Positions 6,197-40,140 of a DNA stretch of 53,292 nucleotides are shown here, in pieces (within the stretch, counting starts at the first letter, position 1; each line of letters opens with the position of its first letter). The stretch is from a virus. Location: positions 1-53,292 of the IMG/VR virus record IMGVR_UViG_3300037297_000142; one strand, written 5' to 3'. The notes beneath the pieces are model-generated. The model was not told the DNA's origin. It worked only from the letters and a program-made list of their open reading frames with translations, and did no database searches. The position numbers and the translations under genes were made by a program.

Positions 6197-6647
6197 ATGG
6201 TTAAGTATGGTTTTATTGTTTTGCTTTGTATTCTCTCCGGTATTCTCATATACACATGGATTGACGCGGGAAGAAAAAAAGCAGCGCATATACGAAATAT
6301 TGAAAAACTTGAAAATACGATTTCAGAACTCAAAAAAAATAATAATGAGCTTAGAAAATACAATAAAGAATTTAAACTTAAGCTTACAAAGGGCGATGAA
6401 AAATTTAAGCTCATCAAATCAAGCTATGATGAACTTGAAAAAAAATATAAATCAGCTATGGAAAATTTGGGCAGATCTGAAAATTTATCAAATGAACTTA
6501 GAGAGAATACAGAGATACTACGAAAGGAAAATACAGCAATTAGAGACGAATTCCAGGAGCTTGAAAAACTCTTACAAGAATTCTTGGATAATTAATCTTA
6601 TTTCATTTGGAATAGGGTTTATTATTGCTTTTTTTCTCCAAAAATAA
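6174..6647 (+). CDS. Alternative-frame ORF fully overlapping 6197..6595 (signal anchor, coiled coil, C-terminal TM)
   Basis: ATG 6174 after an AAGGAA RBS. Begins MKKRKYHKWLSMVLLFCFVFSPVFS and ends WIINLISFGIGFIIAFFLQK just before the terminator. Could be a composition artefact. Confidence 0.25.
   Translation: MKKRKYHKWLSMVLLFCFVFSPVFSYTHGLTREEKKQRIYEILKNLKIRFQNSKKIIMSLENTIKNLNLSLQRAMKNLSSSNQAMMNLKKNINQLWKIWADLKIYQMNLERIQRYYERKIQQLETNSRSLKNSYKNSWIINLISFGIGFIIAFFLQK
6197..6595 (+). CDS. N-terminally membrane-anchored coiled-coil protein (lysis accessory / spanin-like)
   Basis: 132 aa with a TM segment (YGFIVLLCILSGILIYTW) followed by a K/E/L heptad-rich region; AAAGGAAG RBS. Confidence 0.4.
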   Translation: MVKYGFIVLLCILSGILIYTWIDAGRKKAAHIRNIEKLENTISELKKNNNELRKYNKEFKLKLTKGDEKFKLIKSSYDELEKKYKSAMENLGRSENLSNELRENTEILRKENTAIRDEFQELEKLLQEFLDN

Positions 6648-6680
6648 AAAAAGCCGGTTTCCCGGCTTTAAAAAGGTTTT
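6645..6680. terminator. Bidirectional rho-independent terminator between the convergent late and early arms
   Basis: AGCCGG-TTTC-CCGGCT hairpin (6652-6667) with an A-run upstream and a T-rich tract downstream. Confidence 0.7.
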
Positions 6681-7911: not shown

Positions 7912-8007
7912 CGTTTCCCCTCTTCTCCGGTCGCATCCCCGACCGGTGGGTAGTCTCATCAGTACCGGCATTACCGGCAGACCGGGGTCAACCCGGTTTC
8001 GACTTTG
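7912..8007 (-). promoter_or_regulatory. GC-rich structured leader L1
   Basis: Three consecutive hairpins on the minus-strand RNA: ACCGGG/CCCGGU, UGCCGG/CCGGUA and CCGGUCG/CGACCGG. Ends in the SD GAGGGGAAA. Confidence 0.55.
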
Positions 8008-8160: not shown

Positions 8161-8220
8161 ACTCTCCTCTTTCTCCCCTTAACCCTGGGGGGTTGAGTAG
8201 GTGGGGTGCTAAAATAGCAA
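8161..8220 (-). promoter_or_regulatory. GC-rich leader L2 carrying the conserved block CCCCCAGGGUUAAGGGG
   Basis: The 17-nt block at 8175-8191 is identical to 9383-9399 and sits 13-14 nt upstream of the start codon in both cases. Confidence 0.5.
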
Positions 8221-9369: not shown

Positions 9370-9467
9370 GATTCTCTCCTTTCCCCTTAACCCTGGGGGT
9401 AGGGTAAATATAGGAAACCGGGGGAATTGAACCCCCTCCCGTGATGGTCAGCCTTGTTTCCGTGTGC
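9370..9467 (-). promoter_or_regulatory. Leader L5: tRNA-like acceptor/T-arm minihelix plus the conserved CCCCCAGGGUUAAGGGG block
   Basis: RNA reads GGAAAC..(19 nt)..GGGGG-UUCAAUU-CCCCC-GUUUCC (9412-9461), followed by the block at 9383-9399. Confidence 0.5.
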
Positions 9468-9728
9468 TTAATTGAAAATCGTTGTGAAATTGTTTGCTTT
9501 CCATAGCCGAATAAGATCTTCTTTTTCATAATCAAGGTGATTAAAAAAGAAAACCAATTCTGAAAAGTTTTCTTTCTCCCATGTCTGCTTAATTGCATTT
9601 CTGATTGCAGTAATCAGAAATGCATATTTGTTTTGTCTTCTTTCGTTTTTTGTACAAAAAGAAAGTTTTCTTTCCAATTCTACATATATTTTTCCTTTGA
9701 AAGATTCCTGTTTCTCTGTAAGTTCCAT
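9468..9728 (-). CDS. Hypothetical protein (86 aa)
   Basis: Start moved to ATG 9728 (MELTEKQESF), which follows AAGGGAGAAAGAAGGGAA. The track's N-terminal extension lies in the GC-rich leader. Confidence 0.5.
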   Translation of the reverse strand: MELTEKQESFKGKIYVELERKLSFCTKNERRQNKYAFLITAIRNAIKQTWEKENFSELVFFFNHLDYEKEDLIRLWKANNFTTIFN

Positions 9729-10046
9729 AATTCCCTTCTTTCTCCCTTTCGGGTAATTACAAGCAGGAAGCCGAATCAATACACTTCCTCGACCGTAGGT
9801 TCCCACATGATTCGGTTTCACTTCCTGCTATGGAAACATGCGCCCTTGAAACGCCCGTCAGCCTGGTTACTGATTGTTCCCCTGTTCTGTTTTTCCCCGC
9901 CGTTTCGGTTAGTCCTGGGCTTTTTCGGTTTCCCGCTTTCCACCTGTACGCTCTTTCAGGTTTCTGCCCTCAACCCCGATGTGGTCACTTCCGGCCACCC
10001 GGCTGCTTATCAAATAACATCCGCCCTGCTGTTTCCCTCACTCTCT
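9729..10046 (-). promoter_or_regulatory. Long (about 318 nt) purine-rich, GC-rich untranslated leader L6 / candidate structured RNA
   Basis: 57% GC where counted (9841-9900), in an AT-rich genome. Stops in all three minus-strand frames. GAAA-capped hairpins, a long-range GGAAACA/UGUUUCC pairing and a 17-bp interrupted hairpin at 9762-9829. Confidence 0.55.
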
Positions 10047-10052
10047 ATTAAT

Positions 10053-10081
10053 AGTATACTCCAATATCGTTTAAACGTCAA
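10053..10081 (-). promoter_or_regulatory. Sigma70-type promoter driving leader L6
   Basis: TTGACG, 17 nt, TATACT on the minus strand. Confidence 0.6.
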
Positions 10082-10337: not shown

Positions 10338-10403
10338 AATATATAAAAAAAACGTATAAACGTCAACCTTTTACTTGACGTTTATACGATAATGTATTAT
10401 ATT
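10338..10403. promoter_or_regulatory. Divergent promoter pair built on a perfect 14-bp inverted repeat
   Basis: CGTATAAACGTCAA (10353-10366), 8 nt, TTGACGTTTATACG (10375-10388). Each arm supplies a TTGACG -35 box, 17 nt from a TATATT -10 on its own strand. Confidence 0.65.
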
Positions 10404-10942: not shown

Positions 10943-11177
10943 AAAACCTGTTCTTTTTTCTTATATGATTATTAAAACCTTCGGGATTCCCGGGGCTTTC
11001 ATGTATTCTTTTTTTCAATTCATTAAAATCGTTTTCATATATCGTAAAAGGTGTATTTTTATTACCGGATATAAAATGAGGCACACCGATACAAGCGCAG
11101 TGCTTTCTAATACATACCTGTGATTTATTCAATAATTTCGCTGCTGTTTTTGTTCCAATGGGGAATTTTATATTCAT
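10920..11177 (-). CDS. Small DNA-binding-like protein (HTH candidate)
   Basis: 85 aa. GTKTAAKLLNKSQVCIRKHCACIGVPHF resembles the product of 24291..24482. ATGA overlap with the upstream gene. Confidence 0.45.
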   Translation of the reverse strand: MNIKFPIGTKTAAKLLNKSQVCIRKHCACIGVPHFISGNKNTPFTIYENDFNELKKRIHESPGNPEGFNNHIRKKNRFFNLPDIK

Positions 11178-14100
11178 GTATTCTTTCCAATTTCTTCTAT
11201 ATTAATAGTATTCTTTATGAAATTATATATTTCAGATTTTTGACTCATGATAAATCGTGTATGCCCTTCAGGTAATGAATCTTGCATAGCGTCAAAATAT
11301 TTCTGTATGTGCTTATACTTAATAAAATTATCCTGTTCATCATATATTGACCATTGGAAAATTATATTTTCATTTTCCTGTCGTTTCTCTCTTAATGCCT
11401 GGGAAATCGGCTCATGAAAATATAAAGCCCGTTGCCCTGGGGAATGTTTCAATAATGATTTTTCTATCCCTGAAATCGGGTTATAAACAAGGATGTCAAA
11501 TCTATCTATTATTTCACCATTTTTATTAATATCCTGCGTTATTGTTTTAATAATATACTTTCCCTTTAATTTCTGATTTATTGAAAAATCAATATCCCGA
11601 AGAATTATATCAAGTTCAAATGCCGGGAATTTATTCGATGCCATATCCCTTTCTATAATTTCCCATTCATGAATTTCAAAATCAAGAAAATCTATTCTTT
11701 TTTTAAGGTCTTTTATATTTTTTTCATACTGCTGGATATTGCTGTATTGATTCTTTTTTTCTTTAAGCAGTACTTGATTACTTGAAATATTTTTATCAAT
11801 TTCAATTATATTATTATGAATTAAGTACAATTCATTCCCGAGTTCATTATAATTTTTCTCTATGTGAGGATTTATTTTATCCACAAAATCATTTTTATTT
11901 TTTATAAGTATATCAAGTTCATCATTTAAGTTTTTTAGATTTTCTTCATATACTTCAATCTTTGAGTATTGATTAATTGAATTATTAATGGCTGATATAT
12001 CCAGTTCTGTTAATAGCAATTTTTTTAGGTTCTTTATTGTATTTTCACCTTCTTTCATTTCGTCTATTATATTCTGAATATCAAGTTTATTTATATCTTT
12101 TACATGTTCTTTTTTTAATTCAATATATTGATTTATTTGTATATTGTATCCTTTTGCTTTTTTCTCATTTTCTTTTATTATTATTTCATTTTCCTTTATT
12201 GTGTCTTTATTTTTTTTATTGATATGATTGCAATTTTCACAAGGAACGGACAAAAATGAATTCTGGTTTCTTAAATTTTCATTTTCATTAAATAAAATAA
12301 TTATGTTATTCTTTAATTCTTTTATCTTTATATTACAATCAATAATACAGGACTGATGATAATCTCTATCCTGTTTTATTTCTTCTTTCTGTTTTGTTAA
12401 CTGTTGTATTTTTTTATACTGATTTTCTATAGCAATTTTAAACTTTTTATTTTCTGCTAAGTTTTCTTTTAATTTCTTAATATCATTTTTTTTCAATCTT
12501 CTTATTTTTTCTTGTATAATATTTTTCTGAACTTGTTTTGAATGTATTTCATTTTCTATATTTTTAATTTTCATATTAATTAAAATTTGATTTTCATTTT
12601 CTACTTTTAAATTATCAAATTCTTTTCGTTTTTCATTTTCTTCATAAACAAATTCGTTTGCTTTATTATCAAGTATATTTAAATTTCTTTTTAATTCTAC
12701 TATTTTATTCCATATCATATATTTATCTTTTATCAGTTCCAACATAGTATTTTTTTTCATATTTAACCCTGAACACTCAAGGTTTAATATTACTTTTTTT
12801 TCACGGGCATATAATTTCTCTTTTTCCCTTGATATACCTATAATTTCATGATAAGCGTTTCTCATGTCAGTTGAATTTGAGGAAGTTATTGAACTGGTGA
12901 AATTTTTCATTCTCCACGGTTCCTGTGAAAAAAATGACGTGCTTATAAAAGAAGACAAAGGTCCAAAGAACTTTTCGCATTCAATCATGAAATTTTTTAA
13001 TGATAAAGCATTATGAAGATTTCTAAAAAGCATTTTCCCTTCTTCTCTGTAAAACCAGAAACATTCTATTTTGTTTTCTCTTATAGAGATAATGTGTCTG
13101 TGTATAATTCCATTAACGTTAAATTCTTTTTTTATATGACCATCGCCTAAAAATAATTCTTTCAAGCTTCGATAATCAAAACCGATAAACACGGGATAAG
13201 GTGAGGCAAAACCAAAGAAAGAGGATTTTCCTTGTCCGTTATCGCCTTCTATTAATATTAATCCTGTTGTATCTTTTGAAAAATCATAAACAAATGTATT
13301 TTTACCTTGCCCGTCTATACTGAAGATTGAATTTTTTATTTCCAGATAAAGTAAATCTACAATTATTTTTTCCCTGTGCTTTGATTGAAAAGATACATTT
13401 TTTTCTATTTCATTTATTTTATCCTGTGATACTTCATAATCATGAGTATTTTCCCATCCTTTGAAAAAACAATATTTTTCCCATAATGTATTTAATTTCT
13501 CCGCCTGTTCATATGTTATGCGTTGAGATTCTTCTTTTATTATTTCAGGAATTATTTTACAGGAATTGAGAGAATAATTATTTTTAATTTTATTTTCATA
13601 ATCATGGATATTTACTTTCAATAAATCAGCCTTTTTAATTTTTAAATTGATACGAACATCAAAAGAATTACTATTCAATAGATTTTTTGAATATTCTTTT
13701 ATTTTAAAATTATTATAATCAATTTTAAATTTATTTTTTCTTACAACCGGATAATCAATACGGACTGTTTCTGTTAAAAACCTGGGAACAATTTCAGATC
13801 TATAATTTATAAACATATCACTTTTTTTAATTTCAGTTAAATTAAACCCGGGCTGGAAACCTGTACTATTCCAGGGATGATCATCAAAACCGGTGAAACC
13901 AACATAACCGCCGTTTAATATTTTACTTTCACTCGGTGTATGTATATGACCGAAAATATATCTATCTGCGTTTATTTCTGTAAGTATTTTATTATCAATT
14001 ATAAAATCCGTATTTCTTATTATAGGATTATTATGATGGATATTATCAACAAAAACGCCATGCCCTAAAAAAATACAGGGTATATTTTTATTCGCTTCAC

Positions 14101-14560
14101 GGCATGGAACCCAGAATTCTGTTATAAATTTATTTATATTTTCCTGTATTTTTAAATTTGCATCTTTCATGCTACATTTATTTTTTGCAATAAAATGACT
14201 TTTGTCTATTTCCGGTAATCCTATAAAAAGATAATTAAATATAATTTGTGGTTTTTCAGGTTTTATAATATAACAACCAACATTTTTTAATATACTCAAA
14301 CTTCCGGCAGTATCATGCGCAGGGGTGCCGTAAATTATTATTACATTCGTTATAAATGCTAATTCCTTAAAATAATTCTGGATGTAAGAAATATAGTCAT
14401 TATCGGAATTATAAAGAGGCCGGTTAAATATATCACCAGCAATACAAACAAAATGTACACGTTCATTTTCTACCACATATTTTATTTTATCTAAACATGG
14501 TTTCTGCTGTTCAATCCATTTTGGATCAAGGTGAAGGTCCGCAAGTTCAAGTATTTTCAT
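11174..14560 (-). CDS. Fused SbcD/Mre11-like nuclease and SbcC/Rad50-like ATPase (single 1128-aa polypeptide)
   Basis: Phosphoesterase motifs DLHLD, GDIFNR, GTPAHD, GHGVF and GHIHTP. Walker A GDNGQGKS. About 350 aa of coiled coil with a central CENC (zinc-hook-like CxxC). Signature-like SPGQR and Walker B-like IYDEQD. Confidence 0.8.
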   Translation of the reverse strand: MKILELADLHLDPKWIEQQKPCLDKIKYVVENERVHFVCIAGDIFNRPLYNSDNDYISYIQNYFKELAFITNVIIIYGTPAHDTAGSLSILKNVGCYIIKPEKPQIIFNYLFIGLPEIDKSHFIAKNKCSMKDANLKIQENINKFITEFWVPCREANKNIPCIFLGHGVFVDNIHHNNPIIRNTDFIIDNKILTEINADRYIFGHIHTPSESKILNGGYVGFTGFDDHPWNSTGFQPGFNLTEIKKSDMFINYRSEIVPRFLTETVRIDYPVVRKNKFKIDYNNFKIKEYSKNLLNSNSFDVRINLKIKKADLLKVNIHDYENKIKNNYSLNSCKIIPEIIKEESQRITYEQAEKLNTLWEKYCFFKGWENTHDYEVSQDKINEIEKNVSFQSKHREKIIVDLLYLEIKNSIFSIDGQGKNTFVYDFSKDTTGLILIEGDNGQGKSSFFGFASPYPVFIGFDYRSLKELFLGDGHIKKEFNVNGIIHRHIISIRENKIECFWFYREEGKMLFRNLHNALSLKNFMIECEKFFGPLSSFISTSFFSQEPWRMKNFTSSITSSNSTDMRNAYHEIIGISREKEKLYAREKKVILNLECSGLNMKKNTMLELIKDKYMIWNKIVELKRNLNILDNKANEFVYEENEKRKEFDNLKVENENQILINMKIKNIENEIHSKQVQKNIIQEKIRRLKKNDIKKLKENLAENKKFKIAIENQYKKIQQLTKQKEEIKQDRDYHQSCIIDCNIKIKELKNNIIILFNENENLRNQNSFLSVPCENCNHINKKNKDTIKENEIIIKENEKKAKGYNIQINQYIELKKEHVKDINKLDIQNIIDEMKEGENTIKNLKKLLLTELDISAINNSINQYSKIEVYEENLKNLNDELDILIKNKNDFVDKINPHIEKNYNELGNELYLIHNNIIEIDKNISSNQVLLKEKKNQYSNIQQYEKNIKDLKKRIDFLDFEIHEWEIIERDMASNKFPAFELDIILRDIDFSINQKLKGKYIIKTITQDINKNGEIIDRFDILVYNPISGIEKSLLKHSPGQRALYFHEPISQALREKRQENENIIFQWSIYDEQDNFIKYKHIQKYFDAMQDSLPEGHTRFIMSQKSEIYNFIKNTINIEEIGKNT

Positions 14561-39761: not shown

Positions 39762-40049
39762 TCAACCCGTTATTACCGGATTCTGGTCGGCCGGTACCGT
39801 TAAAGAAAATTCGTAATAATCATGGTCAAATTCGAAATGGGCGGGATTATTACAGTCATAGTCACAACAAAAATGATTATTTTTTATACCGTCAACATAC
39901 AATCCTGCGAATTCACAGGTATTGTCTGAAAGATTTAATTTCCAGTATTCTTCTGATGAGGTGTCGTTAACCTCATCATAGAAAACTATGAAACCTGAAG
40001 TTATTTTTTTGTTTTTGATTTCCTGTATTTGTTTCTCTGTAAGTTTCAT
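39762..40049 (-). CDS. Hypothetical protein (95 aa), first gene of the minus-strand island
   Basis: ATG 40049 after GGAGGGAAAC. The promoter-proximal 36 nt match 10398-10433 with one mismatch. Confidence 0.5.
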   Translation of the reverse strand: MKLTEKQIQEIKNKKITSGFIVFYDEVNDTSSEEYWKLNLSDNTCEFAGLYVDGIKNNHFCCDYDCNNPAHFEFDHDYYEFSLTVPADQNPVITG

Positions 40050-40073
40050 GTTTCCCTCCTTGATCATATTATA

Positions 40074-40102
40074 AATATATATCTATATAGATAAATTGTC
40101 AA
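40074..40102 (-). promoter_or_regulatory. Promoter of the minus-strand island
   Basis: TTGACA, 17 nt, TATATT on the minus strand. Confidence 0.6.
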
Positions 40103-40140
40103 GTATTTTATGAAAAAAAATAAAAAAAATCGTTTTTTTC

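What the first reader, a model, noticed from the sequence alone, without database searches (positions are those of the whole stretch)
9729..10046. 318-nt purine-rich, GC-rich untranslated RNA with its own promoter upstream of an 86-aa gene
Seen in sequence: a sigma70-type promoter (TTGACG, 17 nt, TATACT; 10081-10053, minus strand) is followed by about 318 nt with stops in all three frames before ATG 9728. I counted 57% GC in 9841-9900. The sense strand is visibly purine-rich and poor in U. Structural elements include CGG-GAAA-CCG and CCG-AAA-CGG hairpins and a nested GGGC[CCUG..CAGG][CGGGAAACCG]GCCC domain. A 7-bp long-range pairing, GGAAACA (10036-10030) with UGUUUCC (9838-9832), closes about 190 nt. 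A 17-bp interrupted hairpin AGCAGGAAG-UGAAA-CCGAAUCA...UGAUUCGG-CUUCCUGCU (9829-9762) sits just before the SD. This is far longer than needed for an RBS and unlike anything else in the genome. Inference: it could be a large riboswitch or ribo-regulator, an RNA sponge (many GGRAA motifs), or a stand-alone ncRNA.
Basis: partly seen in the sequence, partly recalled or inferred. Interest (0 to 1): 0.6.

Follow-up and report, generated by a model that had tools for sequence, protein, structure and literature searches.

The report
Conserved phage early RNA, tRNA-mimic punctuated
The first thing this phage transcribes from its early promoter is a folded, non-coding RNA of about 165 bases that no database names; related phages conserve it, and a tRNA look-alike right behind it probably lets a host enzyme cut it free, but its job is untested.

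Summary
The stretch is real, but it is four modules, not one 318-nt RNA. (1) A ~115-nt core (10014-9899) occurs in three related phages at 77-92% identity, above the neighbouring genes (62-78% where comparable). It keeps one three-way-junction fold with compensatory changes, always first behind the early promoter, ahead of three different genes. Two more phages carry a related 'type B' RNA in that slot. (2) A tRNA-like element (9881-9831: acceptor, D-like arm, T-arm, no anticodon arm); all six RNAs have one 149-173 nt after the start, and one relative has a real tRNA in a similar leader. (3) A 17-bp hairpin seen only here. (4) A GNRA hairpin and the ribosome-binding site. No Rfam family matches; RNase P, T-box and c-di-GMP-I failed direct tests. 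Best reading: host RNase P cuts at 9881 and frees a ~165-nt RNA that acts alone, probably by binding a host protein (0.45); main rival: put/nut-like antiterminator (0.25). Riboswitch and sponge are unsupported. Expression is untested; the family rests on four sequences. The scan had not reported this RNA on other DNA; it noted a same-layout E. coli phage RNA, which my model did not match.

The parts
10053..10081 (-). Sigma70-type early promoter (-35 at 10081-10076, -10 at 10058-10053); predicted start near 10046
   Evidence: same promoter type in all 10 related loci. Start site inferred from spacing.
10015..10046 (-).
10006..10014 (-). Conserved unpaired motif UUGAYAAG, boxA-like by recollection only
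   Evidence: Invariant apart from Y in 4 of 4 type A copies; absent in type B
9899..10003 (-). Conserved structured core: three-way junction closed by P1 (10003-10000 / 9902-9899)
   Evidence: RNAalifold 28 pairs, 3 with both sides changed; 92.9% of cells paired; 77-92% identity
9981..9998 (-). P2 hairpin with a GNRA-type loop (GGAA or GUAA)
   Evidence: GUGG/CCAC changes to GCGC/GCGC and GCGG/UCGC in homologs
9905..9979 (-). P3-P4 arm: CGG/CCG, a 2-bp step, conserved GA/AG internal loop (9971-9970 / 9916-9915), GGGC/GCCC. Shared with type B RNA.
   Evidence: 12 pairs, 100% paired in 4 sequences; the 2-bp step is GG/YY in type A and CC/GG in type B
9921..9965 (-). Insert on P4: AGAAA linker, hairpin P5 (9960-9943), linker, optional GAAA hairpin P6 (9935-9926)
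   Evidence: P5 has a U-A to C-G change; P6 is deleted in L004 and rewritten AAGC/GCUU in L346; the whole insert is a tetraloop in type B
9882..9898 (-). A/G-rich linker; predicted 3' end of the released RNA at 9882
   Evidence: Variable among homologs; cut site inferred
9831..9881 (-). tRNA-like element without anticodon arm: 7-bp acceptor (9881-9875 / 9838-9832), D-like arm (9872-9859), T-arm (9855-9839), discriminator A9831
   Evidence: same module in L346, L348, L351; z -2.06
9762..9829 (-). 17-bp interrupted hairpin, found only in this genome; likely 5' protector of the processed message (inference)
   Evidence: z -3.06; not in L004, L346 or G001
9744..9753 (-). GNRA hairpin in front of the ribosome-binding site
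   Evidence: CCC-GAAA-GGG here, CCCC-GACA-GGGG in L004
9729..9743 (-). G/A-rich ribosome-binding region
   Evidence: 9745-9736 is unpaired with or without the upstream modules
9468..9728 (-). 86-aa gene of no known family; follows this RNA in some phages and a plain short leader in others
   Evidence: L003, L006, L350, L504 lack the RNA
9412..9461 (-). Second tRNA-like minihelix in the next leader
   Evidence: T-arm hit to the tmRNA model, E 2e-4; similar copies in L346 and L348
10132..10317 (-). Upstream MerR/excisionase-type HTH gene; syntenic in most carriers, used to find homologs

Best explanation
The early promoter makes a long transcript whose first unit is a folded non-coding RNA. SHOWN by comparison: the core is under selection for one fold, always comes first after the promoter, is independent of the gene behind it, and is always followed by a tRNA-like element. 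INFERRED: host RNase P reads the acceptor/T-arm element and cuts before G9881, and a 3' cut follows, as for the other punctuation modules of this operon. That releases a ~165-nt RNA (10046-9882) and leaves a message with a hairpin-protected 5' end. INFERRED, weakest step: because the phage separates this unit like a gene, the RNA is itself the product and acts in trans in the first minutes of infection, most likely by binding a host protein (decoy or inhibitor) through its conserved GA/AG loop and junction. My odds: conserved structured RNA 0.93; tRNA-like processing site 0.8; trans-acting product 0.45.
For: Core identity 77-92% against 62-78% for flanking genes where both could be compared. 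One fold predicted independently for the alignment; 92.9% paired, 6/500 shuffles; covariation score 5/500; slid controls 24-41%. A whole hairpin is deleted or rewritten. Three different first genes follow the core; the same 86-aa gene occurs without it. Start-to-acceptor distance 149-173 nt in six phages, with two different tRNA-like modules filling the slot. A real tRNA-His sits in an equivalent leader with the same tail in L492. The released 165 nt folds into the conserved structure (helix probabilities 0.6-1.0). RNase P cleaves acceptor plus T-stem-loop model substrates (PMC11143913), and the D-loop is dispensable (PMC4919913).
Against: Only four distinct type A sequences, all related; the shuffle test ignores relatedness, and pairs with double changes alone are not significant (114/500). 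Single-sequence z-scores of the core are weak (-0.7 to -1.4). In this genome the energy model prefers the long-range helix to the local acceptor (0.96 vs 0.03), and it does not favour the local acceptor in L351 or L345 either; it cannot score the tertiary elbow. The acceptor of this module barely varies, so it shows no double changes. No 3' CCA is clearly encoded. No binding partner is identified and the host is unknown. Relatives without the RNA show it is dispensable.
Confidence: 0.45

Rival explanations
1. Cis-acting antiterminator or elongation element (put- or nut-like): the nascent core loads on RNA polymerase or Nus factors so that the 3.4-kb early operon, rich in untranslated structure, is read through; the later cut is incidental.
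For: First position behind the early promoter in 6 of 6; a boxA-like motif followed by a GNRA hairpin in type A; HK022 putL lies just downstream of its early promoter (PMC9378689).
Against: No intrinsic terminator between 10046 and the operon end near 6650. Type B lacks the boxA-like motif. Four relatives transcribe the same gene from the same promoter type without the RNA. The fold is a three-way junction, not put's two stem-loops of ~70 nt.
Confidence: 0.25
2. tRNA-elbow clamp: the AGAAA and UGGAA linkers around P5 form interdigitated T-loops as in the RNase P specificity domain, and bind tRNA or the neighbouring tRNA mimic.
For: The order hairpin, helix, AGAAA, P5, GGUGGAAAG, P6 mirrors P9-P13; real RNase P loci show ACAGARA and GGUGRAA. 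A tRNA mimic follows in every copy.
Against: RF00010 and RF00373 find nothing while controls ring. My model does not hit the specificity domain in 29 RNase P loci. The second loop varies (UGGAA, CGGAA, UGAAC, GAGAA), and type B replaces the insert by a tetraloop.
Confidence: 0.1
3. Passive 5' stabiliser: the core only protects the first transcript end from decay.
For: 5'-most position; all early leaders here are structured.
Against: Many invariant unpaired bases and a conserved internal loop exceed what a protective hairpin needs; the core begins ~32 nt from the 5' end and would be cut away from the message.
Confidence: 0.07
4. New self-cleaving ribozyme used as one more punctuation mark.
For: A hammerhead-like sequence lies in another leader (8007-7912; scan note e1-3439313); compact junction with invariant linkers.
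Against: A tRNA-like processing site already follows it; no known ribozyme core matches; it never occurs between genes.
Confidence: 0.07
5. Riboswitch controlling the first gene, for example c-di-GMP-I-like.
For: Three-way junction with a GNRA arm; short word matches to the c-di-GMP-I consensus recalled from memory.
Against: RF01051 gives no match here (its controls rang only below the cut-off); no terminator; the ribosome-binding site is open with or without the core; three unrelated downstream genes.
Confidence: 0.04
6. RNA sponge built of GGRAA or GGA repeats.
For: GGRAA 10 vs 2.5 expected here; 7 each in L346 and L351.
Against: Only 1 in L004; GGA not enriched in any copy; many of the words are GNRA loops and acceptor-stem starts.
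Confidence: 0.02

Closest known systems
HK022 putL/putR RNAs (PMC9378689)
   Same: Structured non-coding RNA just downstream of a phage early promoter.
   Different: put is ~70 nt, two stem-loops, acts in cis on polymerase; this core is ~115 nt, a three-way junction, followed by a tRNA-like processing site.
MALAT1/mascRNA-type processing and tRNA punctuation by RNase P (non-tRNA substrates listed in PMC4919913; minihelix substrates in PMC11143913)
   Same: A small tRNA mimic without anticodon arm placed directly behind an RNA, so that a cut at its 5' side would define that RNA's 3' end.
   Different: Bacteriophage early operon; mimics alternate with hammerhead-like elements and a real tRNA; cleavage untested.
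RNase P specificity domain and T-box stem I (interdigitated T-loops)
   Same: Word-level likeness of the two linkers around P5 and the order of helices.
   Different: No catalytic domain, no model match either way, second loop not conserved.
T4 tRNA-like stable RNAs and phi29 pRNA (from my own knowledge)
   Same: Small stable structured phage RNAs made early; the T4 species come from a tRNA-processed transcript; pRNA is ~170 nt with a three-way junction.
   Different: No Rfam match; this phage has a Terminase_3 large subunit, unlike phi29.
Unnamed ~170-nt early RNA of P1 and lambdoid phages (scan notes e1-202806 and others; unchecked AI notes)
   Same: Same layout: early promoter, ~170-nt folded RNA, then a tRNA.
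   Different: My model finds nothing in P1, phiV10 or epsilon15; no pseudoknot seen here.

Membership tests
Any Rfam 15 family | Score at or above the family's gathering threshold | tested here: not met
   None in the region or in homologs L004, L348, L351
RNase P RNA (RF00010, RF00373) | Catalytic domain with the P4 pseudoknot, CR-I and CR-V | tested here: not met
   No match at E<=10 in G000 or G001; controls ring
RNase P RNA (RF00010, RF00373) | Specificity domain P7-P14 homologous to the core | tested here: not met
   Model R1 does not hit the S-domain in 29 RNase P loci
Interdigitated T-loop (tRNA elbow clamp) | Two conserved pentanucleotide T-loops on either side of a helix | tested here: inconclusive
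   First is AGAMA in 4 of 4; second varies; tertiary structure not testable
T-box riboswitch (RF00230) | Specifier loop, T-box antiterminator bulge, terminator | tested here: not met
   No match; no terminator
c-di-GMP-I riboswitch (RF01051) | Model match and an expression platform | tested here: not met
   No match in G000; one 8.9-bit match elsewhere in G001; ribosome-binding site independent of the core
HK022 put RNA | Position just downstream of an early promoter | tested here: met
   Core starts ~32 nt after the predicted start; first unit in 6 of 6
HK022 put RNA | ~70 nt, two adjacent stem-loops | tested here: not met
   ~115-nt three-way junction
HK022 put RNA | Binds the beta' zinc-binding domain and suppresses termination | not testable with these tools
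   Needs in vitro transcription
nut/rrn boxA site | boxA consensus of the host, bound by NusB-NusE | not tested
   Likeness recalled from memory; host unknown, so no host boxA to compare
tRNA-like RNase P substrate (element 9881-9831) | 7-bp acceptor stem stacked on a 5-bp T-stem with a 7-nt UUCRA loop | tested here: met
   here 4 of 5 T-stem pairs, 5 of 5 in L346; the stems differ in sequence among copies
tRNA-like RNase P substrate (element 9881-9831) | Cleavage 5' of the first acceptor G | not testable with these tools
   Needs enzyme or 5'-end mapping
tRNA gene | Anticodon arm and full cloverleaf | tested here: not met
   ARAGORN calls nothing here; 19 nt between acceptor and T-arm
CsrB/RsmZ-type sponge | Many conserved GGA motifs in loops | tested here: not met
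   GGA 13 vs 11.6 expected; not conserved

The most novel reading that the evidence does not exclude
The released RNA is a phage-made tRNA-elbow binder: a stand-alone mimic of the RNase P specificity domain that clamps host tRNA or the phage's own tRNA mimics, and so competes with or steers host RNase P or tRNA-targeting defences. It would be a fourth use of interdigitated T-loops and the first in a virus.
Probability: 0.1. Interest if true: 0.88.

Novelty: new variant of a known kind. Interest (0 to 1): 0.58.

Why it matters
It adds an undescribed structured RNA family, in two forms, at the most exposed place of a phage's infection programme. It also shows a clear way to give a non-coding RNA its 3' end in a phage: a swappable tRNA mimic, replaced by a real tRNA in one relative's leader. 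PMC4919913 names viral RNAs that handle tRNA-like structures as something to look for; this is a small, testable candidate. Limits: six uncultured phages, unknown host, no expression data.

Tried and rejected
Rfam at gathering and E<=10 thresholds: nothing for the core. BLASTN against cultured phages and plasmids: only 24-27-nt chance hits or none. Model R1 over 35 prokaryote genomes: best 19.8 bits, inside a long reading frame that looks like Lon protease. Public runs: no RNA holder listed; the one DNA run is probably the source and shows no variants. Hidden protein: the plus-strand 156-aa and 73-aa frames are frameshifted or stopped in L004. K-turn reading of the GA/AG loop: rejected, since the GG/YY to CC/GG change supports the symmetric register. 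Alternative helix GGUUG/YRACC: probability 0.002. Group II domain 5, twister, pistol, SAM-I, SRP and 16S S15-site likenesses were considered by eye from memory; none holds beyond short words. The SbcCD-like neighbour found no related loci. Host not identified: best terminase hits are under 30% identical.

Full report
Setting. The window is a complete 53,292-base phage genome with direct terminal repeats, 32% GC, seen in a wetland metagenome. The region lies on the minus strand at the head of a run of small genes that ends at a terminator near 6650. Upstream is a MerR/excisionase-type HTH gene. The host is unknown.

Observation. Promoter, length, stops, GC and purine content are as described. 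The segment is among the most GC-rich 0.07% of 318-nt windows, but it does not fold better than shuffles as a whole (z -0.65), and purine richness is a general trait of sense strands in this genome. Rfam has no family for it.

Homologs. DNA searches of cultured phages and plasmids failed, so I used the flanking proteins. The 86-aa gene led to L004/L005, the HTH gene to L345, L346/L347 and L348, and an invariant 17-mer to a complete 64.5-kb phage, L351. Duplicates removed, there are four type A cores (window, L004, L346, L351). They are 77-92% identical, while the flanking genes are 62-78% identical in the pairs where both could be compared. Each starts about 30 nt behind the same promoter type and precedes one of three different first genes. 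Four other phages have the 86-aa gene with the promoter and a short leader, without the RNA. The RNA is therefore a separable unit, not a regulator tied to this gene.

Fold. RNAalifold on the four cores gives the structure I had drawn by hand: P1 closes a three-way junction with a GNRA-capped P2 and a long P3-P4 arm that carries a GA/AG internal loop and ends in hairpins P5 and P6. Of 113 cells 92.9% pair (6/500 shuffles), the covariation score is reached by 5/500 shuffles, and slid controls pair 24-41%. Double changes occur in P2 (two pairs) and P5. P6 is deleted in L004 and rewritten in L346. These controls ignore relatedness and four sequences are few, so this is good evidence, not proof. 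L345 and L348 hold a 'type B' RNA in the same slot. It shares the order GNRA hairpin, CGG, two pairs, UUGA, GGGC...GCCC, AGGA; the two pairs read GG/YY in type A and CC/GG in type B, and these short pieces fold at z -3.3 and -3.8. Type B lacks the P5-P6 insert and has its own 3' domain.

The tRNA-like module. Positions 9881-9831 form a 7-bp acceptor stem, a D-like arm and a T-arm with a UUCAAGG loop, with no anticodon arm. The same module follows the core in L346 and stands in other leaders of L348 and L351, with all ten acceptor and D-arm pairs kept and different T-stem sequences. L004, L351, L345 and L348 use a second kind of mimic behind the first RNA (the L348 copy read by eye). The distance from predicted start to acceptor is 149-173 nt in all six. 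In L492 a real tRNA-His sits in a leader with the same tail sequence. RNase P cleaves acceptor plus T-stem-loop substrates (PMC11143913) and does not need a D-loop (PMC4919913). I infer that these are punctuation marks cut by host enzymes. The long-range strand does not follow changes in the acceptor across phages, so I read it as incidental, though it could slow processing here.

The 3' modules. The 17-bp hairpin is stable (z -3.06) but private to this genome. The small GNRA hairpin before the ribosome-binding site has a counterpart in L004. The G/A-rich site is open with or without the upstream modules, which argues against a switch.

Mechanism. Shown: a conserved fold, fixed first position, independence from the next gene, and a tRNA mimic behind it. 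Inferred: cleavage before G9881 releases ~165 nt, which folds into the conserved structure on its own. Since the units between punctuation marks elsewhere in this operon are genes, I take the RNA as a product that acts in trans, most likely by binding a host protein early in infection (0.45). The cis antiterminator reading (0.25) fits the position and a boxA-like word, but there is no terminator inside the operon, type B lacks the word, and the fold differs from put (PMC9378689).

Comparison with known families. The linkers around P5 recall the two T-loops of the RNase P specificity domain, but RNase P models find nothing, my model does not find RNase P S-domains, and the second loop is not conserved. 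T-box and c-di-GMP-I models give nothing here. Earlier notes of this scan describe a ~170-nt early RNA before a tRNA in P1 and lambdoid phages; the layout is the same, but my model has no match in P1, phiV10 or epsilon15.

Verdict. A real, undescribed structured RNA of a small phage group, inside a mosaic leader with tRNA-mimic punctuation. The kind of thing is known (early phage RNAs, RNase P punctuation); this family and this pairing are not, as far as Rfam and my paper searches reach. Function is unproven and no expression data were available. Interest 0.58.

Noticed in passing
L345:626-785 and L348:10252-10415: Type B early RNA with an extra 3' domain (second UUGA-type loop, GGAA hairpin, invariant A/G-rich linker); no Rfam match. 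Parts faintly recall RNase P CR-V and CR-I in swapped order, from memory only.
   Followed up: partly
L492:1271-1345: Real tRNA-His(GUG) in an early leader, with the same tail as minihelix leaders; a hammerhead-like sequence lies ~250 nt upstream.
   Followed up: partly
window 10338-10403: Two further copies of the early promoter, back to back on opposite strands, whose -35 regions form a 14-bp inverted repeat; a possible operator for the HTH protein.
   Followed up: no
window 9412-9461: Second minihelix with a perfect T-arm; similar copies in L346 (1401-1450) and L348 (11126-11175), replaced by another module in L004.
   Followed up: partly
window 7912-8007: Hammerhead-like leader sequence; related starts in L004 (~3725) and L492 (~1005).
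   Followed up: no
window 40026-40130: Promoter and translation start resemble those of the 86-aa gene in L003 and L004, so the opposite-strand island may be a second early cassette with a related first gene.
   Followed up: no
window 8168-8192 and 6629-6668: A 25-nt leader block is identical in L004, and the operon-end terminator is 95% identical in L004.
   Followed up: no
window 11174-14560: 1128-aa protein that joins a metallophosphoesterase domain to an SbcC-like part, a possible SbcD-SbcC fusion.
   Followed up: no
L348:8935-9180: GC-rich, hairpin-rich non-coding stretch in a related phage; not examined.
   Followed up: no
P0010: A 3137-aa protein with 23 short stretches matching residues 47-66 of the 86-aa profile; probably a repeat artefact.
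   Followed up: no
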